Assembly (NCBI GenBank): GCA_964365185.1
Contig: CAYIOP010000001.1
Coordinates: forward strand, 180,579 to 244,578
Length of the DNA: 64,000 bases
Source: an uncultured Candidatus Saccharibacteria bacterium
GTDB lineage: Bacteria > Patescibacteriota > Minisyncoccia > UBA6257 > 2-01-FULL-56-20
Direction: 5' to 3'
Numbering within the stretch: the first letter of the stretch is position 1; each line of letters begins with the position of its first letter. A program made the position numbers and the translations under genes. The notes under the pieces were generated by a model. That model did no database searches, was not told the origin of the DNA, and saw only the letters and a program-made list of their open reading frames with translations. Positions 35,792 to 51,041 of this stretch are shown here, piece after piece.

Positions 35792-37723
35792 CTACTTTAA
35801 AAAAATATTGACGAATGGATTTAGAATAATTCCTAAAAGAGAGGGGCTATCCAGACCGCCTTCGGTAGACGGGGGCAGAGGTATAGTTTGGAATTGGCCG
35901 TCATTGGGATAAGGAATTCCTTGTGGAGGCATGGGAAAACTGTTGGGGTCGAAATTATTTCTGTCGAAACCTGGCGGAGGAACAGATTTTTCTCCTGAAT
36001 TTTGAAGATGGGGCATTCCAGAAAATTCAGTAAAACATTTTCGAATAATTTCTTGGATTGGACCAGAGGGCTGATCACCACGGAGAAGTTTTTGAACCTC
36101 TTCTTCTTTTAAATTGCTCTTGAGACAAGCGGCCACTGGCTCGGGAAATATTCCAGTTCGGAGCATTGGCATATTTCTGCCCTGATTAGTCGGCGAATTT
36201 TGGAACATCTTTTCTTTTCTTTCTGGAGGCATAAAACCAGGACTAGATTCTCCGTAATTTCCACCTTCGTGGGGTCGAGGAGTAAACGATTCAAAACATG
36301 GCCTAATTTTGGATTCTATATCTAGTCCAGGCATCAATTCTCCGGACTTAATTTTTTCAAAATCAGCGCCTAAGTTATTACTGAAACATTCTTTAACTTC
36401 AGCCGGGGCGGTTTTAAGAAAGTCGCCAAAACCGGGGGGTGGACCGTCGAAATTCCTCTCGGAATTGTTTTGCCCTTGCCCGCCAAATTGAAAACGCGAG
36501 GCCTCAAAACAAACTCGGAAAGTATCACCCATCTCAGGTGTAAATTCTCCTGTTCCGGATTTGATTTTTTCAACATCAATCCCTTTTTCAGTTAGGCATG
36601 ACAAAACTTCCAGTGGCGCATCTTTAAACATTTCATGGGGTCTAAAACCGACACCGGATTTTTCAAAACAGGTCTTCACTTTCTCCCCTATTTCCTGGCC
36701 AGGAACGAGATTACCGCTTTCAATATTTTGAATGATATTAGAACCTAAATTTTCTTTAAGACAGGCGCGCACTTCTTCAGGCGCGTTCTTGAGGCCGGCG
36801 CGCATTCTTGAAAAACCCTCCTTGGTTTTTTGGATTTCTTCGGGTTTAATTAATCCATTTTCTTCGGCAAATTTAAAACAAGCTTGCTGATTAGCTGGAT
36901 TATTACAGTAGGTCTCGCAGGCCTGTTTACCAATACAACCGCCGGGGCCTTTGCCGCCGGTTTTTTTAATCCGGGTGGCTTCTTCTTGATTCATAAAACC
37001 AGCTTCTTCTGCAAAGGCAAGGCACGCTTCAAAATTATTTTGGTCACCGCAGAAAACATCACATTCTTTTTTTGACTTACAGCCGCCGGGGGTCTTGCCA
37101 GCTTTCATTAATTCCAGAACTTTTTTAGGCGGCACGCCATCTTTTTCACCCTTTATATCCAAACCGGCTTTTTCGGCAAAAGCGATGCATTCTTCGGCGT
37201 GATCAAAATTACCGCAGTAATTTTCACACGATTCTTTAGAGATACAGCCGCCAGGCATTTGGCCACCGGAACGAATAAACGTCTGAATTTTTTTGGCTTC
37301 TTTAAAATGGCTGTCGGTAATTTGGTTTTGTTCAGCCCAAGTGAGACAAACTTCCAAATTTTCCACCGAACTGCAAAACACTTTACAACTCTTCGGATCC
37401 GTGCAGCCGCCGGGACCGGCTTGAGTTTTCAAACTTTTGGAAAAGCGCCCGGCCCGAGCGGCCTCTGCTTCGTCCATTAAGCCGTTCTTTTTAGCAAAGA
37501 CAATGCAGGCCTCGATATTTTCTTTTTTATCACAAAAGTTTTTACACTCGGTTTTACTCGCGCAATTACCGAGCTCGGGAATTGGAAAAGTAATTTTACT
37601 TAAAATCGCCGATTCATTAATTGCATTAATATTATCTTCGGTTTGAGCTAAAGCAGAATAAAAAACAGAAAAGCCAATCAAGATAATTGAGATTGACAAC
37701 GAAACCCAGATAATTTTTTTCAT
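35792..37723 (-). CDS. Secreted Cys-rich modular repeat protein (5 x 4-Cys modules + 4 x 2-Cys modules)
   Basis: Signal peptide, then repeated PGGCxxxxxCxxFCxxxxNxExCxxFAxxxG units, then repeated APxEVxxC(L/F)...CFE units. 643 aa. Confidence 0.6.
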   Translation of the reverse strand: MKKIIWVSLSISIILIGFSVFYSALAQTEDNINAINESAILSKITFPIPELGNCASKTECKNFCDKKENIEACIVFAKKNGLMDEAEAARAGRFSKSLKTQAGPGGCTDPKSCKVFCSSVENLEVCLTWAEQNQITDSHFKEAKKIQTFIRSGGQMPGGCISKESCENYCGNFDHAEECIAFAEKAGLDIKGEKDGVPPKKVLELMKAGKTPGGCKSKKECDVFCGDQNNFEACLAFAEEAGFMNQEEATRIKKTGGKGPGGCIGKQACETYCNNPANQQACFKFAEENGLIKPEEIQKTKEGFSRMRAGLKNAPEEVRACLKENLGSNIIQNIESGNLVPGQEIGEKVKTCFEKSGVGFRPHEMFKDAPLEVLSCLTEKGIDVEKIKSGTGEFTPEMGDTFRVCFEASRFQFGGQGQNNSERNFDGPPPGFGDFLKTAPAEVKECFSNNLGADFEKIKSGELMPGLDIESKIRPCFESFTPRPHEGGNYGESSPGFMPPERKEKMFQNSPTNQGRNMPMLRTGIFPEPVAACLKSNLKEEEVQKLLRGDQPSGPIQEIIRKCFTEFSGMPHLQNSGEKSVPPPGFDRNNFDPNSFPMPPQGIPYPNDGQFQTIPLPPSTEGGLDSPSLLGIILNPFVNIFLK

Positions 37724-39043: not shown

Positions 39044-40027
39044 ATGGATGTAAGTTGGATGTATGCCAAGCGAAGGGCGGCTCCCGAGGCGCCCAAAAAA
39101 TCTAAAACTTATCTTTATGTTTTGGTGGGCGTGATTTCCGTGTTTTTGGTCGGAGGAATAGGCGGGTATTTATTTTACGAATCAAAATCGCAAACAGCCC
39201 AAGAAATTGAAGACCCTAACAAAGAGTGCGAACGAATTTTAATGGCGGTTAAAAAAGATCAAACCAGCATCAGCATCTGCGTTAAAAGTGATGGCAGCTT
39301 GAGATTGCTCTGGGAAAAATTGCCAGTCGGAGCTAATAAAATTGATATTTATTTTAAGGATGATAACGGAGATCGAAAATTATGGACCACGGTTTTTGTA
39401 ACTTCGGAATCAGGATACCTAGATTTATCTAAAACCGACCAAGGCGGCGCGGGTTATGAATTTGAAATTTATGATGGTTCGGGAAAGATTTTAATGAAAA
39501 GCGAGGGGTCGAGTCCGGCCCCAAGCGCCAGTCCCCCACCCAATACCGGCTCTCCGCAAAATCCGCCGCCCTCAAATCAACCAAACGAAAATCCGCCGGC
39601 GCCGACTCCGCCAAACCAACCCCAGCCAAATCTGCCGCCAGATAGCGGAACTCCGCCTGCCAACCCAACGCCAACTTCTTCGCCTTCGACCGACACTTCA
39701 ACTCAAACATATTACACGCCAACCGGCGAGGTTTCGGGAACCAGCACTGTGCCCACGGAAAATTTTTGGGTTTTACATGTACACAACAAAATTGAAATCG
39801 GCTGGCAAAATATTCCTTCAAGCACCAACCAAATTATTATTTATCGCTCGAAAACCGAAACCGGCGGTTATCAAAAACTTTTAGAACAACAGAATCCCAA
39901 AACAACTTATGACTTTCTAAGAATTGACGACCATACGCTTCCCGAGGCCTATTACTACAAAATGGAAACCAAGATGAATTCGACGATTCTAGAAACCTAC
40001 GGACCGGAATTTCTTCCGAGTTTATAA
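39044..40027 (+). CDS. Membrane-anchored protein with Pro/Thr/Ser-rich linker (surface or secreted)
   Basis: N-terminal TM. A ~70-aa low-complexity P/N/T/S-rich tract is followed by a C-terminal globular domain. TATAAT lies 8 nt upstream (leaderless). Confidence 0.5.
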   Translation: MDVSWMYAKRRAAPEAPKKSKTYLYVLVGVISVFLVGGIGGYLFYESKSQTAQEIEDPNKECERILMAVKKDQTSISICVKSDGSLRLLWEKLPVGANKIDIYFKDDNGDRKLWTTVFVTSESGYLDLSKTDQGGAGYEFEIYDGSGKILMKSEGSSPAPSASPPPNTGSPQNPPPSNQPNENPPAPTPPNQPQPNLPPDSGTPPANPTPTSSPSTDTSTQTYYTPTGEVSGTSTVPTENFWVLHVHNKIEIGWQNIPSSTNQIIIYRSKTETGGYQKLLEQQNPKTTYDFLRIDDHTLPEAYYYKMETKMNSTILETYGPEFLPSL

Positions 40028-42432: not shown

Positions 42433-43911
42433 TTACCATTTAGCTAGACACAAAAACCTAATACCCGCCGACCCACTAGCGCCGCAACCAACGTTACCTC
42501 CTGCTGAATTAAGACCGTATAAACAAATCGCAGTAACTCCGATAGCATTAGTACAAGATGTTGCACCACTCGATGGGGCGTTCGCTACAACAGAATAAAG
42601 ATAAAGTCCACCGCTTAAACCACTAGAACTTCTAAGTAGCGTCGCGGAGACACCGGATGCGGGAGCGATATCTAATTTTGCTCCTGGCGAGGCGACTCCA
42701 ACTCCCACGTTTGTTCCATCATCATAAATAACACTGTTTGTTAAAGTGGCTCCGCCTGCAGCCCATTTCGATATATAATTTTGTGAGCCGCTGCCGGGAT
42801 TGGCGGCGGTGGTTTGGCGAGTGCCGTCTGGGAAAACAATAGCCGTACCGGATTGTGATAACCTAATATCATTTTGATGAGTGGACGTTGCGGTAAATCT
42901 AGAAGTGCCGGAAACATCAAGTTTATAAGTCGGATTACTTTGGCCAATGCCGACATTGCCTTTGACTGCGGCGAGGGTAGTGGTGGCAGAAGTGTAGAAA
43001 GTGACATCAGGTAATCCGGCGCTACCGACTGAAAGAGAGCCGGTGAAAAAAGAATTTAAACCGACCTCAAATGACGCTAACTGGGATGGATTTAGCACTC
43101 CAATTCCTATTGCTCCGTTATTTTTGAGAATCAAGTTATATTTGCTTGGTATAGCACCGTTATTAAAAATTAGATCGCCGTTCGCCATTTTAACTGAAAA
43201 TTGAGAAGTTCCGGTTGAGCTTTTAAAATCAATTAAATCAAATCCGGTTGCTCCTCCTTGAAGAATAGTAAGAGGATGGGTTAATGGAGTAGAAGTAGCG
43301 TTGACGCCTAATTTACCTGGAAAATAATAGTTGCCGTTGCCAGTTAAAGAACCAAAAGTACCAGCGGAAACATTGCCGGCATTAATAGTAATGGAAGCGC
43401 CATTCGCAACAATAGTGCCAGAGGCATAGATGTTTTGGGCTCGAATGGTATTAGCTAAAAGACGGCCGCGAACATAAATTCGGGGGGTGTCTTGATCGAT
43501 TCCAGAATCATAAAAACCTGTTAAATCCGTCACATCATCTGGATGAAGAAGACTGCCAATACTGATACCTACGCGATCACCGAATGGAGGAGTAGCAGTA
43601 CTATTACGGATAGCAACAAAAGTATTATAAGAAGTTGGTAAACTTGCGCCAAAACGACCATCAGTGATTTTAAAAAGATAATTCTCGCCACCAAAAAGAG
43701 GAGTAGTAATAGTAAATTTGGTATCAGAAGGAACGGTTGAAGAACCGATAATTAAATTACTGCCGTTGGTATTTAAGATACCACTTCCGCCGGGCGGAGG
43801 ATCTGTTGGCCCGACAAAGGCCCGCGCTACCCAAATCCCGAGCGGCATTACCAAAACAACCACGAAAACAGTAATAAAGATTTTGATAAGGTTGATATTT
43901 TTAGCTTTCAT
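42433..43911 (-). CDS. Secreted Gly/Ser/Thr/Asn-rich repeat protein (predicted beta-rich surface protein)
   Basis: N-terminal hydrophobic anchor, 492 aa, compositionally biased (G, S, T, N, A). It is the last gene of a 5-gene minus-strand cluster. Confidence 0.45.
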   Translation of the reverse strand: MKAKNINLIKIFITVFVVVLVMPLGIWVARAFVGPTDPPPGGSGILNTNGSNLIIGSSTVPSDTKFTITTPLFGGENYLFKITDGRFGASLPTSYNTFVAIRNSTATPPFGDRVGISIGSLLHPDDVTDLTGFYDSGIDQDTPRIYVRGRLLANTIRAQNIYASGTIVANGASITINAGNVSAGTFGSLTGNGNYYFPGKLGVNATSTPLTHPLTILQGGATGFDLIDFKSSTGTSQFSVKMANGDLIFNNGAIPSKYNLILKNNGAIGIGVLNPSQLASFEVGLNSFFTGSLSVGSAGLPDVTFYTSATTTLAAVKGNVGIGQSNPTYKLDVSGTSRFTATSTHQNDIRLSQSGTAIVFPDGTRQTTAANPGSGSQNYISKWAAGGATLTNSVIYDDGTNVGVGVASPGAKLDIAPASGVSATLLRSSSGLSGGLYLYSVVANAPSSGATSCTNAIGVTAICLYGLNSAGGNVGCGASGSAGIRFLCLAKW

Positions 43912-43918
43912 TTTTTTG

Positions 43919-44365
43919 TTAATTAGGATTTTGGTTTTGGGCGCCGGAGCCAGAAAGGTCTGGAATTTGATTTAGAGATTCAAGAGTGGGGTTTTTAAGC
44001 TGGTCATCGATTAATCTGGCCACTTGACTGTCCCCTTTTAGCTTGGTCCAAAAAATTATTTCTTTGGAATTTAAACGAATTTCGTTTTTTGGGCCCCAAA
44101 AAATATCCTGGAAGGTCTGCAAACTGAATTCAAAATTGCTGCCGGTCTCGTTTCTTTGGATAAAGAAAACATTTTTTAGTTTGGGGTATGGAAACCAGCT
44201 TAGCTTGCCAAAATAAACTTCGCCGTTTGAGAGGTAAACTGCGGAATAGGGCGAGTCCTTGACGCCAGAGCTTCCTTGATTGGTTTTGGTAATAAGCCAG
44301 ATAATTGCGCCTAAAAGCACGGCTAAAATAACGATTAAGATAGTGATGATAATTTTGGTCTTCAT
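43919..44365 (-). CDS. Hypothetical membrane-anchored protein
   Basis: N-terminal TM helix. 8-nt gap to the neighbouring genes. Confidence 0.4.
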   Translation of the reverse strand: MKTKIIITILIVILAVLLGAIIWLITKTNQGSSGVKDSPYSAVYLSNGEVYFGKLSWFPYPKLKNVFFIQRNETGSNFEFSLQTFQDIFWGPKNEIRLNSKEIIFWTKLKGDSQVARLIDDQLKNPTLESLNQIPDLSGSGAQNQNPN

Positions 44366-44373
44366 TTAAATTT

Positions 44374-44913
44374 TTATTTGATAACTAAATATCCAACTGG
44401 GCCTTTATCTGGCCCACCGCAGGAGGGACAGAAAAATTTAAACTTACCAGAGGCGGAGGCCTGAAGAGAAATTAATCCCGAGCCGCCTTTTTTAATGGAT
44501 TTAGAAAAACCGAAATCCGGCTGGGAAATATCGTAATTTTTGTCAATAGCCGAAAATTGTAGATTAAGAACGTCGCCGGAGTTTACAATCACTGTGTCGG
44601 GAATAAATTTATTTTTATCAATCTTGATTTCAAATATTCTTAATTTAGAATCAGAGCCGGGCGCGGCGGGAACGACATTTTCCGGTCGAGCAACATTAGC
44701 CGGAAGGTTTTTTGAATCTTGGTTAGGGACAATAATATTATTAACAGAGGCATCTAAGGGAATGCGGGTGGTACTAGGCGGTGTTTCGTTTTGAGAGTTA
44801 TTAGCTGATTTCGAATCTGAATTCCCTACTCCTGATTTATTAGAAAATCCATAAATTATCATGCCGACCCCAAGCACAACTACCGCGGAGATAATGATAG
44901 TATTTTTATTCAT
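44374..44913 (-). CDS. Membrane-anchored beta-rich protein with C-terminal FCPSCGG motif (possible metal-binding, cupredoxin-like)
   Basis: N-terminal TM helix. The C-terminal ...KFKFFCPSCGGPDKGPVGYLVIK pattern is reminiscent of cupredoxin/CuA-type C-termini but lacks His and Met. Confidence 0.35.
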   Translation of the reverse strand: MNKNTIIISAVVVLGVGMIIYGFSNKSGVGNSDSKSANNSQNETPPSTTRIPLDASVNNIIVPNQDSKNLPANVARPENVVPAAPGSDSKLRIFEIKIDKNKFIPDTVIVNSGDVLNLQFSAIDKNYDISQPDFGFSKSIKKGGSGLISLQASASGKFKFFCPSCGGPDKGPVGYLVIK

Positions 44914-44921
44914 GGAAATTA

Positions 44922-45989
44922 CTAATAAGGAGCTGAAGTGGTAGCCATTAAATTATACCACGTAAAGATGCCGCCCACCTTAACACAGATTTGAAAAAGG
45001 TCATCTCCTCCTGATTTTTCAAACCAAATACTACCGCGGGTGCTATCGTCGCAAGTGTCTTTTGCGAAGCCGCCAGCAGGAATCAAGCGCATGCCACCCA
45101 CAATAGTCAATTCTTGGTCAGTCGAAGTGGCGGTGGTGGTGCCGATGCCTAACCGAACCAATCCTCCTCCGCCAGCTACCACATAAACCGGACTGGTTAA
45201 ACGAGAAGGAGCACTCAGAACGTCAAAGCCATATGAAGAGTCGGGCGCGGCGCCAATGCCAACATTACTATTACCAAAATAAATAACTCCATTAACTGAC
45301 CCCCATTTTCTACCGGGTACGCCAAGTTGAAGAGCTGAAGGATTAGCGGTGGAGCTAGGAACGATATCAGAATCAAAAGTAGCGGCGTTAATTCTGGCAA
45401 CACCAGTTTGAATAAGTTGAGAAAATCTTTTTTGGATGTTGGTAGCATTGTAGTGAATACCGATCGTAACATCGACAGAATCTAAAGCATCGGGATAAAT
45501 TCTTTTCACAAACTCCAATCTATCAATCACCACGCGATCTGAAGTTAGGGCTTGAGGAATGCCGTTCTCTCCTTCTTTTAAATAGGCCTTGCCTTGGTCT
45601 AGGTAGATGTAGTTTTTGGCCACGGGCAAAAACTGTTCGGGCGGACCAGCAATGTAGTCAGTGCTTGAAGTCACTCGAAAAGTAAGAGTGCTAGTGGGAA
45701 CAGCCACTAGCCGGCCACCAACATCAGTTACTTCATTTTCGGTTTCGATTAAACTTGATTCTTCAACAAAACGCTGAATGACATTTAATAAAAATTGGCT
45801 CTGCCGATTAACTTCGGCTCTGGATGACTCTCTATTTTGAACTTGAAGAACTGTTAGAAGAATGGAAACAAAAGCAATGGAAATAACGCTAAAGATAGCG
45901 ATAAAAACTAGAATCTCGATAAGAGTCAGGCCTTGCTTTTTTCGCGTGAGATAAATAAATTTTTTAAGCAGGTTTATCATTAATTTCAT
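44922..45989 (-). CDS. Type IV pilin/pseudopilin-like protein (prepilin-type N-terminal cleavage/methylation motif)
   Basis: KKQG|LTLIEILVFIAIFSVI has Gly(-1), Glu(+5) and a hydrophobic helix. 355 aa. Confidence 0.6.
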   Translation of the reverse strand: MKLMINLLKKFIYLTRKKQGLTLIEILVFIAIFSVISIAFVSILLTVLQVQNRESSRAEVNRQSQFLLNVIQRFVEESSLIETENEVTDVGGRLVAVPTSTLTFRVTSSTDYIAGPPEQFLPVAKNYIYLDQGKAYLKEGENGIPQALTSDRVVIDRLEFVKRIYPDALDSVDVTIGIHYNATNIQKRFSQLIQTGVARINAATFDSDIVPSSTANPSALQLGVPGRKWGSVNGVIYFGNSNVGIGAAPDSSYGFDVLSAPSRLTSPVYVVAGGGGLVRLGIGTTTATSTDQELTIVGGMRLIPAGGFAKDTCDDSTRGSIWFEKSGGDDLFQICVKVGGIFTWYNLMATTSAPY

Positions 45990-46014
45990 TAATCATCTTG
46001 CTTGCTAGAATTTT

Positions 46015-46422
46015 TTACAATAAACCAAACCAACTAAAAAGATTAAAAATATTAATATCAGTTTCAACAGTTAGAGCCACTAAAGCCGCGCCCAAAATTA
46101 GAAGATCAAATTCAAAACCATTGACTAGAGGTTTTTTGGTCGCGATTTTCCAGATATTTATTATTAAAAATTGAATAATAAGTAGGATGGAAATCGGCTG
46201 AACTAAAATTCCAACAATTAAAAGCAGACCGCCCACAAATTCGACAATCGCCACAACAGGCGCCCAAAAATTCCCGGGTTTAAAACCAACGCTCGATAAC
46301 CATTCGGCGGTGCTTTTTAGATTTTTTAATTTCGGCCAACCGTGAGCAACTAAAATCACGCCCAAGATAATTCTTAAAAAGAAGATGGCCCAATTGCTAA
46401 ATATCCAAAAGAAAGGAAACAT
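46015..46422 (-). CDS. DoxX-family membrane protein
   Basis: Four-TM small membrane protein with a DoxX-like pattern (LRIILGVILVAHGWPKL...). Confidence 0.6.
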   Translation of the reverse strand: MFPFFWIFSNWAIFFLRIILGVILVAHGWPKLKNLKSTAEWLSSVGFKPGNFWAPVVAIVEFVGGLLLIVGILVQPISILLIIQFLIINIWKIATKKPLVNGFEFDLLILGAALVALTVETDINIFNLFSWFGLL

Positions 46423-48264: not shown

Positions 48265-51041
48265 ATGAGTGAACTTGGACCGAGATACGATCACAAAGAA
48301 ATTGAAGATAAGATTTATAAACTCTGGGAGAAATCCGGGTATTTCTCCGCCGAAGGCGGATCCGCCTCTGGCGGAAATCCTGATAAGCGCAAACCCTATT
48401 CAATAATTATGCCGCCGAATAATGCGAACGGCTCGCTGCATTTGGGGCACGCGGTAGGACTGACTTTGCAGGATATTTTAATTCGATACTGGCGGATGCA
48501 AGGTCGAAAAACGCTTTGGCTGCCGGGGGCGGATCACGCGGGATTTGAAACCCAGGTGGTGTATGACAAAAAACTGGATAAGGAAGGACGGAATAGATTT
48601 ACCATTCCCCGCGAGGAACTTTGGAGAGAAATTTGGGATTTTACACAGACCAACAAAAAATTGATGCAGGAGCAGACCAAGAAACTCGGAGCTTCTTGTG
48701 ATTGGTCGCGCGAGCGATTTACGCTGGACCCGGAAATTATAAAAGTCGTTTATGAGACCTTTGAACAGTTATATAAAGACGGCTTGGCTTACCGCGATTT
48801 AAAAGTGGTGAACTGGTGCCCTAAACATCGCACCGCGCTTTCGGATTTGGAAGTAAAATTTGTGGAGCAAGAAGACCCGCTTTATTTTATAAAATACGGA
48901 CCGCTTACGGTGGCGACAGTGCGTCCAGAGACGAAATTTGGCGACACAGGGCTCGCGGTTAATCCTAAAGACGCGCGATATAAAAAATATATAGGTAAGG
49001 AAATAGAGGCAACCGGAGTTTTGGGACCGCTTAAATTTAAAGTGATTGCGGATGAGGCGGTGGACCTAAAATTTGGCACGGGAGTGGTTAAAGTGACACC
49101 AGCACATGACCAGACGGACTTTGAAATTTGGCAAAGGCATAAAGATGAAATCCCGGGACCAAAGCAGATTATTGATGAGTTGGGGCGACTGATGACTAGT
49201 AGCGGACTCGGCGAGTACGGAGGGTTGAAAGTTATGGAAGCGCGGGAAAAGGTGGTGGAAGCAATGAAGCAAATTGGAATTTTAGAAAAAGTAGACCCGA
49301 ACTATAAACACCAAATCGCGACTTGTTATAAGTGTGGCAACACGCTTGAGCCATTGCCTAAGATGCAGTGGTTTATTCGTATGACTACTCAAGCTAAAAG
49401 CGAAAAGCTAAAAGCGAAAAGTAATGGAAAGTCGCTTAGGGATTTGGCGGTGGAGGCGGTTAAAAGCGGAAGGGTAAAATTTACGCCGAAGCGGGCGGAG
49501 AAAGTTTTCATGCACTGGATGAAAAATATTCGGGATTGGAACATATCGCGGCAGATTGTTTGGGGAATTCGGATTCCGGCGTGGTTTTGCGTTAGTTGTG
49601 GGAAAGAGAAAATTAATCCTCTTATAAAATCCAAGTGGTTTTTGGTGCGACACGGAGAAACGGATTGGAATGTTGAGGGAAGGGCAAATGGTCATACGGA
49701 TATACCGCTGAATAAAATAGGATTTCAACAAGCTAATATGGCCGCTGAAAAATTAAAAGGTGAAAATATTGATTTGGTTCTATGCTCAGATCTTAAACGA
49801 GCTTCTCAAACCGCAGAGATTATAGCTAAAAGATTAGGTGTTGAATTAATAATAGATAAAGATCTGAGAGAAAGAAACATGGGCGTTGTTGAAGGAATGT
49901 TAAGAGAGGAATGGAAACAAAAACATCCAAATATGTCAGAAAGTTTAGAAAGTAGGCCGCTAGACGGAGAAAGCTTAGGTGAATTACAAGATAGAATATT
50001 TAAAACTTTTAATAAGCACAAATCACAGCATAAACATAAAAATATTGTCCTAGTAACTCATGGCGGCTCAATTAGATCATTGTTAGGCAAACTCAGAAAT
50101 ATGAAATTTGAGGATTGGGCTCATTTACAGTCAAAAAATACCGAAATTTTTAAATTTGATATTAGCGAAGATTGTGGAAAATGTGGTTTAGATTTATACG
50201 AGCAAGACCCGGATGTTTTTGATACTTGGTTTTCGTCGGGGCAGTGGCCGTTCGCGACTCTAATGAGTCGTGAAAGTTCAAAGTTAAAAGCGAAAAGCGA
50301 AAAGTTGGGAAAGGACGATTTCAAAAATTTCTATCCGACGGATGTGATGGAAACGGGCTATGACATTTTGTTTTTCTGGGTGGCGAGGATGATTATGCTG
50401 GGGATTTACCGAACCGGCAAAGTGCCTTTTAAAAACGTCTACTTGCACGGACTAGTGCGCGACAAAGACCGGCAGAAGATGTCTAATCCAAAGGCAATGT
50501 GATTGACCCGCTGGGCGTAGCCGAGACCTACGGCACGGACGCGGTTAGAATGGCGCTCGTTGTTGGCAATACGCCCGGCAATGACATTGTGATTTCAGAG
50601 GACAAAATCCGCGGGTATCGAAATTTCGCCACGAAAATTTGGAACGTAGCCAGATTTGTGATGATGAACTCGCCCTCCAAAATTTTGCGGAGCAAAACTT
50701 GGGAGGGTAAACCTTCTTTCACTACGCAAGATAAAAAAGATTTAGCGGCGCTTAAGAAAATAAAAACACAAGTGGCTAACCATATTGAAAAATTCGAATT
50801 TCATTTGGCGAGTGAAAAAGCGTACCACTATTTCTGGCATACTTTGGCTGATAAAATAATCGAAGAGACCAAGCCTAGATTGAACAGGAAGGATTCGAAA
50901 GATGCGGCAGTGGCTTATTTTAAACTCGAGACCGTTTTGCTTGAGTCGTTAAAGATACTGCACCCTTTTATGCCGTATGTGACTGAAGAGATTTGGCAGA
51001 AATTTAGGCCGGGAACAATATTGATGATAGAAAAATACTAA
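48265..51041 (+). CDS. valS: Valyl-tRNA synthetase carrying a nested histidine-phosphatase domain and a -1 frameshift in the KMSKS codons
   Basis: Colinear with E. coli ValS: PPNNANGSLHLGHA, TLWLPGADHAGFETQVV, CP1 TVRPETKFGDTGLAVNP / GTGVVKVTPAHDQTDFEIWQRH, VFDTWFSSGQWPF, QKMSNP|KGNVIDPL, GYRNFATKIWNVARFVMMN. Reading frame 1 ends at 50502; the frame continues as 50488..51041. Confidence 0.85.
48344..48377 (+). repeat. Dispersed triple-palindrome repeat, copy E (in-frame inside valS, encoding AEGGSASGGN)
   Basis: TCTCCGCCGAAGGCGGATCCGCCTCTGGCGGAAAT. Confidence 0.65.
49642..50169 (+). other. Histidine phosphatase (phosphoglycerate-mutase-like, RHG motif) domain inserted in the ValS zinc knuckle
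   Basis: LVRHGETDWN...LVLCSDLKRASQTAEII...LVTHGGSIRSLL, ~176 aa. It is flanked by CVSCG (upstream) and CGKCG (downstream). Confidence 0.7.

What the first reader, a model, noticed from the sequence alone, without database searches (positions are those of the whole stretch)
42433..46422. Five-gene minus-strand operon: DoxX - type IV prepilin-like - CxxCGG beta-protein - anchored unknown - large Gly/Asn-rich secreted protein (candidate pilus-tip or adhesin module)
The genes are separated by only 8-25 nt. The 355-aa protein has a canonical prepilin leader (KKQG|LTLIE, Glu+5). The three downstream proteins each begin with a single hydrophobic helix, in the way minor pilins and pseudopilins do. 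They include a 492-aa G/S/T/N-rich repeat protein typical of fibre or adhesin domains. No PilB/PilC/PilD machinery genes are in the window, so this may be a cargo (minor-pilin/adhesin) operon used by a pilus encoded elsewhere. The DoxX partner and the FCPSCGG C-terminus hint at redox or metal chemistry at the cell surface.
Basis: inference. Interest (0 to 1): 0.55.

Follow-up and report, generated by a model that had tools for sequence, protein, structure and literature searches.

The report
Pilus-tip fibre adhesin module, groundwater CPR
This operon from an ultrasmall groundwater bacterium (Patescibacteria/CPR) most likely builds the sticky tip of a type IV pilus: a tip pilin, a phage-tail-fibre-like adhesin and two unstudied membrane helper proteins, a plausible host-recognition device rather than a redox system.

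Summary
The five minus-strand genes are real, at the stated coordinates, with gaps of 25/8/8/7 nt. Comparison of 42 species-level relatives shows what belongs together.

**Conserved core**
- A GspJ/PilW-class minor pilin (355 aa). It has a canonical prepilin signal and a C-terminal stalk like the Bdellovibrio MAT ("mosaic adhesive trimer") fibres, ending in a two-cysteine knob.
- A membrane-anchored cupredoxin-fold protein (179 aa). It has lost three of the four copper ligands and carries an invariant CxxC.
- A small anchored protein (148 aa) of a large unannotated family.
- Usually, a secreted MAT/tail-fibre-like protein (492 aa here) with a conserved N-terminal domain and highly variable tips.

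**Link to pili**
- In 6 of 42 genomes this module lies inside a type IV pilus operon (PilB, PilC, pilins, module, PilM/N-like gene).
- In other relatives the same tip domains are fused directly to the pilin, and the partner genes are then absent.

- The three downstream proteins are not pilin-like.
- DoxX is a loosely linked syntenic neighbour (7/42), has no cysteine, and tracks a glycosyltransferase rather than the cupredoxin.

**Verdict:** a new variant of the known modular-pilin/tip-adhesin theme. The roles of the two accessory proteins are unknown.

The parts
46015..46422 (-). DoxX-family small membrane protein (135 aa, no Cys). First gene of the likely transcript, but a variable syntenic neighbour rather than a core member.
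   Evidence: Pfam DoxX 4.2e-19, MauE 1.1e-7. A homolog lies upstream in only 7 of 42 cupredoxin loci. DoxX-GT2-pilin also occurs in L055 and L057, which have no cupredoxin. Zero Cys.
44922..45989 (-). Modular minor pilin (355 aa): class III signal peptide, GspJ/PilW-class pilin module, MAT-fibre-like stalk and a C-terminal two-Cys knob.
45915..45932 (-). Prepilin peptidase site G|LTLIE (G20 at -1, E25 at +5).
   Evidence: Translation. It is the only such motif in the 64-kb window.
44925..45395 (-). C-terminal module of the pilin (residues 199-355): linker, 'NVGIG...' MAT-like repeats and a knob with Cys313 and Cys335.
   Evidence: The family profile matches Bdellovibrio MAT fibre Bd2133 (8ond, 1.1e-6) and other MAT chains. 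All 37 pilin ORFs lying next to a cupredoxin gene have exactly two Cys in their last 75 residues. Sequence.
44374..44913 (-). Membrane-anchored cupredoxin-fold protein (179 aa) without a canonical copper site.
   Evidence: Pfam Cupredoxin_1 3.3e-8. Profile against PDB: nitrosocyanin 5.8e-7, nitrite reductase N-domain 8.6e-6, NosZ CuA domain, CupA 1.1e-3. AF2 pLDDT about 97 in the domain. Foldseek top hits: B. anthracis Cupredoxin_1, CupA, CuA domains. No His in the protein. Three of four Cu ligands are replaced relative to canonical paralogs.
44419..44430 (-). Invariant CxxC (C162-P-S-C165) in the loop between the last two beta-strands, which is the ligand loop of cupredoxins.
   Evidence: Translation. 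Invariant in 40 of 40 aligned homologs, together with G166, G171, P172 and G174. The loop is followed by a short helix at 167-170 in the model.
43919..44365 (-). Small N-terminally anchored protein (148 aa) of a large unannotated family. Third member of the conserved core.
   Evidence: No Pfam, NCBIfam, PHROG or PDB relative. 1622 cluster representatives at E<=1e-3; the 150 best listed are about 100-275 aa, nearly all stand-alone-sized. A homolog lies just downstream of the cupredoxin in 26 of 34 loci with enough sequence. Conserved SPYSAVYLS.G.(I/V)YFGKL.WFP motif.
42433..43911 (-). Secreted or anchored MAT/tail-fibre-like adhesin (492 aa): hydrophobic leader with ARA|F, conserved N-terminal domain, 'NVGIG..P..KL.V' fibre repeats, and a 4-Cys tip.
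   Evidence: The family N-terminal profile matches MAT fibres 8ond (3e-5), 8ojn (3.7e-5) and 8oml (1.5e-3). Its weak relatives often carry Peptidase_S74. Orthologs at the same position range from 346 to at least 1840 aa, with several unrelated tip types. 3 of 10 orthologs tested end in Peptidase_S74. The window's tip type is shared with L003 and L016.

Best explanation
The locus encodes a detachable tip-adhesin module for a type IV pilus in a Parcubacteria/Paceibacteria-like CPR bacterium from Hainich groundwater.

**Shown**
- The 355-aa protein is a prepilin-type minor pilin of the GspJ/PilW class. This class forms the priming and tip complex of type IV filaments (established knowledge).
- It carries a short C-terminal stalk of MAT/tail-fibre-type repeats that ends in a two-cysteine knob.
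- The 492-aa protein is a Sec-exported fibre protein related to MAT fibres. It has a family-conserved N-terminal domain and a swappable C-terminal tip.
- The pilin, the CxxC cupredoxin-fold protein and the small anchored protein form a conserved core. This core sits inside type IV pilus operons in some genomes.
- The same tip domains occur either on the separate fibre or fused directly to the pilin.

**Inferred**
- The pilin is processed by a prepilin peptidase and built into the tip of a pilus whose machinery is encoded elsewhere.
- The separate fibre, probably a trimer, is attached to the pilin's knob. It would then play a role like that of the non-pilin adhesin PilY1.
- The two membrane-anchored proteins act at the outer face of the membrane as assembly or coupling factors for this split arrangement.
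- The role of the CxxC is unresolved. My split is roughly 0.35 for thiol-disulfide exchange with the knob cysteines, 0.3 for a purely structural disulfide that replaces the lost copper site, and 0.2 for Cu(I) or other metal binding as in CupA.
- DoxX is most likely a co-transcribed neighbour with no specific role in the module.
For: - **Pilin identity:**
- **MAT-like repeats in the pilin C-terminus and the 492-aa family:**. Background on MAT fibres comes from PMC10769870.
- **Conserved order pilin-cupredoxin-small(-fibre):** seen in loci found through the pilin. Seen also in 42 species-representative genomes found through the cupredoxin. The pilin lies upstream in 35 of 39 loci, and the small protein downstream in 26 of 34.
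- **Embedding in pilus operons:** the module is inside PilB (T2SSE 7e-118) - PilC (T2SSF 2e-50) - pilin - pseudopilin ... PilM/N-like operons in L022, L025, L035, L038, L040 and L050.
- **Fusion ('Rosetta stone') evidence:** the long Cys-free pilins P0117, P0113, P0104 and P0114 have no cupredoxin, small or fibre gene beside them. The tip of P0113 is 56% identical over 145 aa (2e-47) to the tip of the separate fibre in L029, and it matches six further fibre tips. The S74 tip of P0117 matches the fibre tips in L024, L012 and L009, which are confirmed as Peptidase_S74.
- **Cysteine pattern:** 37 of 37 pilins with a cupredoxin neighbour have one Cys pair in the knob. Among pilin-retrieved loci, 4 of 5 Cys-containing pilins have the cupredoxin against 0 of 4 Cys-free ones. 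My one-sided Fisher test on that table gives about 0.04.
- **Literature:** type IV pili are near-universal in CPR (PMC6744442). Minor pilins with accessory domains act as host-binding tip adhesins in Saccharibacteria (PMC11623550).
Against: - No pilus machinery lies within the 64-kb window or in the roughly 4 kb recovered beyond its right-hand end. The rest of the genome could not be read.
- No experiment or complex model shows that the fibre binds the pilin.
- A trimeric fibre on a single tip pilin raises a stoichiometry problem that I did not resolve.
- L058 has a Cys-rich pilin with the small and fibre genes but no cupredoxin. The cupredoxin is therefore not universally required.
- The Cys/cupredoxin correlation is confounded, because Cys-free pilins lack all three partner genes.
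- No thiol oxidoreductase with a cupredoxin fold is known to me.
- The 492-aa protein on its own finds no PDB relative. The MAT link rests on family profiles with E-values of 1e-5 to 1e-6 over repeat-rich sequence.
Confidence: 0.6

Rival explanations
1. The module is a pilus-independent cell-surface fibre system. The pilin-like protein would act as a short pseudopilus or membrane stalk, as in type II secretion, that exports or anchors the fibre through the cell envelope. It would not sit at the tip of an extended pilus.
For: The closest structural relatives include type II secretion pseudopilins GspJ, XcpW and EpsJ. In most genomes (36 of 42), and in the window, the module is not next to pilus machinery.
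Against: GspJ-class proteins also form the tip complex of true type IV pili (established knowledge; PMC7541494 is listed). Where machinery is adjacent, it comes with a candidate major pilin and a PilM/N-like gene. CPR pili are well documented.
Confidence: 0.12
2. The cupredoxin-fold protein, with DoxX, is a surface copper or redox module with a function of its own. Examples would be Cu(I) handling like CupA, or electron transfer. On this reading it lies beside the pilin only through inherited synteny.
For: It has the same architecture as the membrane-anchored Cu(I) chaperone CupA, which is among the best structural matches. CxxC is a classic Cu(I)-binding motif (established knowledge). Canonical copper-site paralogs occur in the same genomes. 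DoxX is related to quinone-interacting proteins.
Against: The pilin-cupredoxin adjacency holds in 35 of 39 loci across very different flanking contexts, including inside pilus operons. No copA or cop genes were seen in any locus. DoxX accompanies only 7 of 42 loci and also appears without the cupredoxin. The protein has no His and no Met outside the membrane helix.
Confidence: 0.12
3. The module is a competence-pilus DNA receptor, analogous to Thermus thermophilus PilA2/ComZ. It would serve DNA uptake rather than host adhesion.
For: The best structural match, TTHA1219, is a Thermus type IV-like pilin. Neighbouring hits, TTHA1218, TTHA1222 and TT_C0855, are described as Thermus competence pilins. 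CPR are thought to depend on DNA uptake through pili.
Against: The fibre repeats, the S74 chaperone ends and the mosaic tips are hallmarks of glycan- or receptor-binding fibres. No DNA-binding domain was detected.
Confidence: 0.07
4. The cluster is a prophage or tail-fibre remnant.
For: Weak relatives of the 492-aa protein carry the phage-type Peptidase_S74 domain.
Against: None of the four downstream proteins matches a PHROG family. The flanks are housekeeping genes (TsaD, tRNA-Glu, RecG). GC content is typical of the window. The arrangement is stably syntenic across species.
Confidence: 0.02

Closest known systems
Modular minor pilins that act as tip adhesins: S. sanguinis PilB and PilC, and Saccharibacteria TM7x PilX1/PilX2
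   Different: Here the extra module is a MAT/tail-fibre-type stalk with a disulfide knob, not a vWA, lectin or beta-propeller domain. The pilin also comes with three dedicated partner genes that are not described for those systems.
GspJ/PilW-class core minor pilins plus the non-pilin tip adhesin PilY1 (Pseudomonas, Myxococcus)
   Same: The pilin module has the GspJ/XcpW/EpsJ fold. A large Sec-exported non-pilin adhesin is encoded among minor pilin genes.
   Different: The adhesin is a fibre protein with no detected similarity to PilY1. The module is usually detached from the machinery. PilY1 systems have no cupredoxin-like or 148-aa-type partners.
Bdellovibrio bacteriovorus MAT (mosaic adhesive trimer) fibre superfamily (PMC10769870)
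   Same: Both have a signal peptide, a family-conserved N-terminal domain, 'GNVGIGT..P..KL.V'-type fibre repeats (profile E 1e-6 to 4e-5), and mosaic C-terminal tips with or without Peptidase_S74.
   Different: The organism is a monoderm CPR bacterium. The fibres are shorter (346 to at least 1840 aa, 492 here). They are genetically tied to a pilin, and the repeats and tips can be fused to that pilin. Homology of the N-terminal domains and the trimeric state were not tested.
Membrane-anchored cupredoxin-fold copper proteins: S. pneumoniae CupA and the Pfam Cupredoxin_1 family (B. anthracis 4hcf)
   Same: An N-terminal membrane helix is followed by a cupredoxin beta-sandwich, and the Cys of the ligand loop is retained.
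   Different: The His, His and Met ligands are replaced, and a second Cys gives CxxC. The gene context is a pilin, not a copper exporter.

Membership tests
Type IV pilin / pseudopilin (355-aa protein) | Class III signal peptide: short basic leader, Gly at -1, Glu at +5, then a hydrophobic stretch | tested here: met
   KKQG|LTLIE followed by ILVFIAIFSVISIAF. Pfam N_methyl 25.3 bits against a cut-off of 21.2.
Type IV pilin / pseudopilin (355-aa protein) | Long N-terminal alpha1 helix packed against a beta-sheet globular domain | tested here: met
Type IV pilin / pseudopilin (355-aa protein) | Genetic association with PilB/PilC/PilD-type machinery | tested here: inconclusive
   Absent from the window. 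Orthologs lie inside PilB-PilC-pilin...PilM/N operons in 6 of 42 genomes. The rest of this genome could not be read, and no prepilin peptidase gene was examined.
Type IV pilin / pseudopilin (355-aa protein) | Cleavage and N-methylation by prepilin peptidase, and incorporation into a filament | not testable with these tools
   Needs proteomics or genetics.
GspJ/PilW class of core minor pilins | Fold similarity to GspJ/XcpW/EpsJ/PilW in preference to major pilins | tested here: met
   The six-frame motif scan finds only the 355-aa protein. No N_methyl hit. The 148-aa family shows no relation to the pilin family (hhalign probability 0.7%).
Cupredoxin fold (179-aa protein) | Greek-key beta-sandwich homologous to cupredoxins | tested here: met
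   Pfam Cupredoxin_1 33.9 bits against a cut-off of 27. PDB profile hits. Foldseek probability 1.0 and target-normalised TM 0.8-0.87 to 4hcf, 4hcg and 4hci.
Blue-copper / CuA copper proteins (179-aa protein) | Copper ligand set His...Cys...His...Met (or the CuA Cys-x3-Cys-His-Met set) | tested here: not met
   The protein has no His. Against canonical paralogs, His1 falls in a gap or at Tyr, His2 aligns with Gly167, and Met aligns with Leu176. Only Cys162 is kept, plus a new Cys165.
MAT (mosaic adhesive trimer) fibre superfamily (492-aa protein and the pilin C-terminus) | Fibre repeats homologous to the MAT beta-helix/beta-prism region | tested here: met
   Family profiles hit 8ond, 8ojn, 8oml and 8ol4 at 1e-6 to 1e-2. 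The single window sequence alone finds nothing.
MAT (mosaic adhesive trimer) fibre superfamily (492-aa protein and the pilin C-terminus) | Invariant N-terminal domain after the signal peptide, with mosaic C-terminal tips, some bearing Peptidase_S74 | tested here: inconclusive
   A conserved N-terminal domain and several tip types, including S74, are present. Homology of this N-terminal domain to the Bdellovibrio one could not be tested, because no solved structure or sequence was available here.
MAT (mosaic adhesive trimer) fibre superfamily (492-aa protein and the pilin C-terminus) | Homotrimeric fibre | not tested
   There was no multimer prediction tool. The monomer model of the pilin stalk has low confidence (pLDDT 50-63). 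S74 chaperone domains in orthologs imply trimers only indirectly.
DoxX (135-aa protein) | Match to Pfam PF07681 above the gathering score | tested here: met
   69.4 bits against a cut-off of 23.6.
   The first Cys is at residue 162 in the 179-aa protein and at residue 453 in the 492-aa protein. The 148-aa protein has none.

The most novel reading that the evidence does not exclude
Parcubacteria-type CPR bacteria mount phage-tail-fibre-like (MAT-type) receptor-binding fibres with swappable tips on the end of a type IV pilus. On this reading the fibre is attached to a GspJ-like pilin knob with the help of two dedicated membrane proteins. One is a cupredoxin that has traded its copper site for a reactive CxxC; the other is an uncharacterised 148-aa protein. 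That would be a previously undescribed pilus-tip assembly system and a candidate determinant of host range in uncultivated episymbionts.
Probability: 0.3. Interest if true: 0.75.

Novelty: new variant of a known kind. Interest (0 to 1): 0.55.

Why it matters
How the very diverse, mostly uncultivated Patescibacteria find and hold their hosts is largely unknown outside oral Saccharibacteria.

- **A target for host-specificity studies.** The module gives Parcubacteria/Paceibacteria a concrete candidate host-recognition device with mosaic, exchangeable tips. Tip types could be compared with host range in metagenomes.
- **A link between two fields.** It connects Bdellovibrio-type predatory fibres with type IV pili, a connection the MAT paper itself raised as an open question.
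- **Two families to characterise.** It assigns a testable context to two unannotated protein families. One is a copper-less CxxC cupredoxin. The other is a small-protein family with about 1600 cluster representatives.

Tried and rejected
- **Finding the genome's own pilus machinery.** Look-ups with window-end genes reached only 4 kb beyond one end and found nothing at the other. The 248-kb contig recorded for these proteins could not be retrieved.
- **Direct PDB search with the 492-aa protein.** Nothing found. Only family profiles revealed the MAT link.
- **The 148-aa protein.** It has no Pfam, NCBIfam, PHROG or PDB relative, and no domain fusions among the best 150 of 1622 representatives.
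- **DoxX as redox partner of the CxxC protein.** Rejected as the main reading. It co-occurs in 7 of 42 loci, has no Cys, and persists beside pilins that lack the cupredoxin.
- **Strict 'cupredoxin makes the knob disulfide' model.** Weakened by L058, which has a Cys-rich pilin with the small and fibre genes but no cupredoxin.
- **Diversity-generating retroelement acting on the tips.** 23S-IVP/Avd-like genes interrupt the module in several loci, but no reverse transcriptase lies beside them. L055 does have bAvd plus RT, but no template/variable repeat was found.
- **Prophage origin.** Rejected.
- **Promoter and terminator scans.** Uninformative: 12 against 9.3 and 8 against 5.5 expected.
- **Literature.** No paper in the held library contains 'type IV pili', 'Patescibacteria' and 'cupredoxin' together. 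None of the top ten minor-pilin papers mentions cupredoxin.

Full report
**1. The observation**

All five ORFs are on the minus strand at the coordinates given. They are 135, 355, 179, 148 and 492 aa long, with gaps of 25, 8, 8 and 7 nt. They lie between tRNA-Glu/TsaD on one side and a convergent RecG on the other.

Identical copies occur on contigs from Hainich aquifer well H43, 0.1-µm filter fraction. All homologs that carry a source-given name are labelled Patescibacteria, mostly Parcubacteria, Paceibacterota or Liptonbacteria. GC content is unremarkable.

No PilB, PilC or PilM/N homolog is present in the window, and only one prepilin motif occurs in it.

**2. The individual proteins**

- **DoxX (135 aa).** A clear Pfam DoxX match at 4e-19. 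It has no cysteine.
- **The 355-aa protein.**
  - It has a canonical class III signal, KKQG|LTLIE (N_methyl).
  - With a 70-sequence alignment, AF2 gives a 55-residue alpha1 helix and a largely confident beta-sheet domain at residues 80-198. A low-confidence stretch (200-310) and a better-defined C-terminal knob follow.
  - Foldseek and NCBIfam point the same way.
  - The family profile of the C-terminal region matches the Bdellovibrio MAT fibre Bd2133 (8ond, 1.1e-6) and four other MAT chains.
- **The 179-aa protein.**
  - It is a membrane-anchored cupredoxin-fold protein.
  - It has no histidine.
  - Canonical copper-site paralogs exist in related genomes, once in tandem with the CxxC form. 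Against them, His1, His2 and Met are replaced, only the ligand Cys162 is kept, and a new Cys165 creates an invariant CxxC.
  - In the profile alignment, invariant Tyr127 falls at the position of the nitrosocyanin ligand Glu60 (my count).
- **The 148-aa protein.** It matches no described family or solved structure. It nevertheless belongs to a large family: 1622 cluster representatives, the 150 best listed being about 100-275 aa, nearly all stand-alone-sized.
- **The 492-aa protein.**
  - It has a hydrophobic leader ending in ARA|F. This is followed by a family-conserved N-terminus, AF(T/V)GP...G.G.I...N.(S/I).G(T/S)S...TKF, then fibre repeats and a 4-Cys tip.
  - The family profile matches MAT fibres 8ond and 8ojn at about 3e-5.
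  - Its weak relatives often carry Peptidase_S74.
- **Lipoproteins excluded.** None of the three downstream proteins can be a lipoprotein. None has a prepilin signal.

**3. What belongs together**

- **Loci found through the pilin.** Three independent sets show pilin-cupredoxin-small in the same order, in different surroundings.
- **Loci found through the cupredoxin.**
  - A scan of one genome per species returned 42 loci, all Patescibacteria apart from evident mislabels.
  - A pilin homolog lies within 1.5 kb upstream on the same strand in 35 of 39 loci with enough sequence.
  - The small protein lies downstream in 26 of 34 loci, and both are present in 24.
  - A MAT-like protein usually follows. 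Its length ranges from 346 to at least 1840 aa, and it has at least four unrelated tip types. Three of ten tested end in Peptidase_S74.
- **GT2.** A GT2 glycosyltransferase (PF13632) precedes the pilin in about 20 of 46 loci. It has no homolog in this window.
- **DoxX.**
  - It precedes the cluster in only 7 of 42 loci.
  - It is also found as DoxX-GT2-pilin where the cupredoxin is absent.
  - It therefore follows local synteny with GT2 and the pilin, not with the cupredoxin.

**4. The link to pili**

In L022, L025, L035, L038, L040 and L050 the four-gene module is embedded in a type IV pilus operon. The order is:

- PilB (T2SSE 7e-118)
- PilC (T2SSF 2e-50)
- a 156-aa pilin
- a 205-aa pseudopilin
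- a variable protein
- the module: pilin, cupredoxin, small protein, fibre
- a 141-aa protein with a pilin-like N-terminus that lacks Glu5
- a PilM/N-like protein

In the remaining loci, as in the window, the module is detached from the machinery.

**5. Split and fused forms**

Four longer, cysteine-free members of the pilin family stand alone, with no cupredoxin, small or fibre gene beside them. They are P0117, P0113, P0104 and P0114.

Their C-terminal tips are the same modules that cap the separate fibres elsewhere:

- The tip of P0113 is 56% identical over 145 residues (2e-47) to the fibre tip in L029, and it matches six further fibre tips.
- The S74 tip of P0117 matches the fibre tips of L024, L012 and L009.

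Fusion in some genomes and separation in others is the classic sign that two proteins work together. It suggests that the separate fibre sits where the fused tip does, at the C-terminal end of the tip pilin. The cupredoxin and the small protein were found only with split forms, which points to a role in joining or assembling the two parts.

**6. The cysteines**

- Every pilin next to a cupredoxin has exactly two cysteines in its knob (37 of 37). There are two knob types.
- Among loci retrieved through the pilin, 4 of 5 Cys-containing pilins have the cupredoxin, against 0 of 4 Cys-free ones. My one-sided Fisher test gives about 0.04.
- This is suggestive of a thiol-disulfide relationship between the CxxC and the knob.
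- It is confounded with the split/fused distinction. It is also contradicted once, by L058, where a Cys-rich pilin has the small and fibre genes but no cupredoxin.
- I therefore leave the chemistry of the CxxC open. The options are disulfide exchange, a structural disulfide replacing the lost metal site, or CupA-like Cu(I) binding.

**7. Comparison with known systems**

- Modular minor pilins as adhesins are established in S. sanguinis and proposed in Saccharibacteria.
- GspJ/PilW-class pilins together with a non-pilin adhesin, PilY1, form priming and tip complexes (PMC7541494, listed).
- MAT fibres are surface adhesins of Bdellovibrio. Their anchoring partner is unknown, and their authors raised a possible interplay with type IV pili.
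- Méheust et al. reported type IV pili and a CxxC oxidoreductase as CPR-enriched, and suggested the oxidoreductase helps pilin folding.
- No paper in the held library contains 'type IV pili', 'Patescibacteria' and 'cupredoxin' together, and none of the top ten minor-pilin papers mentions cupredoxin.

This locus combines these themes in a new arrangement with two uncharacterised partners. It is a new variant of a known kind, not a new category.

**8. Verdict**

The pilus-tip/adhesin idea is right, and is now backed by structure, profiles, operon context and fusion evidence.
- The 'pilin-like' reading of the three downstream proteins is wrong.
- The DoxX partnership is not supported.
- Confidence in the pilus-tip fibre module is about 0.6. 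Confidence in any specific role for the cupredoxin or the small protein is much lower.
- Interest is moderate (0.55).

Noticed in passing
window 48265-51041 (+): The valyl-tRNA synthetase carries an inserted histidine-phosphatase (His_Phos_1) domain, which is also present in the intact 881-aa ortholog of L003/L004. In the window the gene is split into 745-aa and 180-aa ORFs. The cause appears to be a 1-nt deletion inside the KMSKS motif, near 50478: the sequence reads ...AAGATGTCTAATCCAAAGGCAATGTGA, and one extra A would restore KMSKSKGNVIDP. Given roughly 4-6x coverage of the contigs, an assembly error is likely.
   Followed up: partly
L005:8007-9530, L055:8446-9945, L057:689-2212 and about 20 of 46 loci: A roughly 500-600-aa GT2 glycosyltransferase (PF13632) sits directly upstream of the pilin in many relatives, often preceded by DoxX. 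It has no homolog in this window. It may glycosylate the pilin or fibre, or make a surface polysaccharide.
   Followed up: partly
L005:9610-9990, L018, L030, L042, L043, L044: Small 23S-rRNA-IVP/Avd-like four-helix-bundle genes are inserted between genes of the module in several genomes (e.g. L030, L042, L044) or directly upstream of the pilin in others (L005, L018, L043). GIY-YIG and coiled-coil ORFs occur there too. No reverse transcriptase lies beside them. They look like small mobile or selfish genes that use this locus as a landing site.
   Followed up: partly
L055:15515-17025: A bAvd plus reverse transcriptase pair, the signature of a diversity-generating retroelement, lies 4 kb downstream of a fused pilin-fibre gene. 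No template/variable repeat pair was found within 11 kb.
   Followed up: partly
L015:4171-6571, L030:10290-12382, L039:5263-5892, L038:10016-12442: Canonical copper-site paralogs of the cupredoxin (TH...C.(V/I)PGH...M) are membrane-anchored with a similar linker. In L015 and L030 they are followed by a conserved 410-590-aa anchored protein of unknown function. In L038 that protein occurs without a detected canonical paralog and is followed by another MAT-like protein.
   Followed up: no
L022, L025, L035, L040 (3' end of the pilus operon); L055:11485-12150: A signal peptidase I gene lies at the end of the pilus operon, separated from it by an oppositely oriented gene that looks by sequence like peptidyl-tRNA hydrolase. 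In L055 a signal peptidase I gene lies directly after the fused pilin. This may relate to cleavage at the conserved A-x-A|F site of the fibre proteins, or it may only be synteny.
   Followed up: no
window 39044-40027 (+) and 35792-37723 (-): Two further ORFs have no Pfam match. One is a 327-aa membrane-anchored protein with a long Pro-rich linker next to RecG. The RecG-flanking ORFs of L001, L003 and L016 fall in one similarity cluster (c21), and L001 is this same contig. The other is a 643-aa ORF. They may be additional surface proteins.
   Followed up: no
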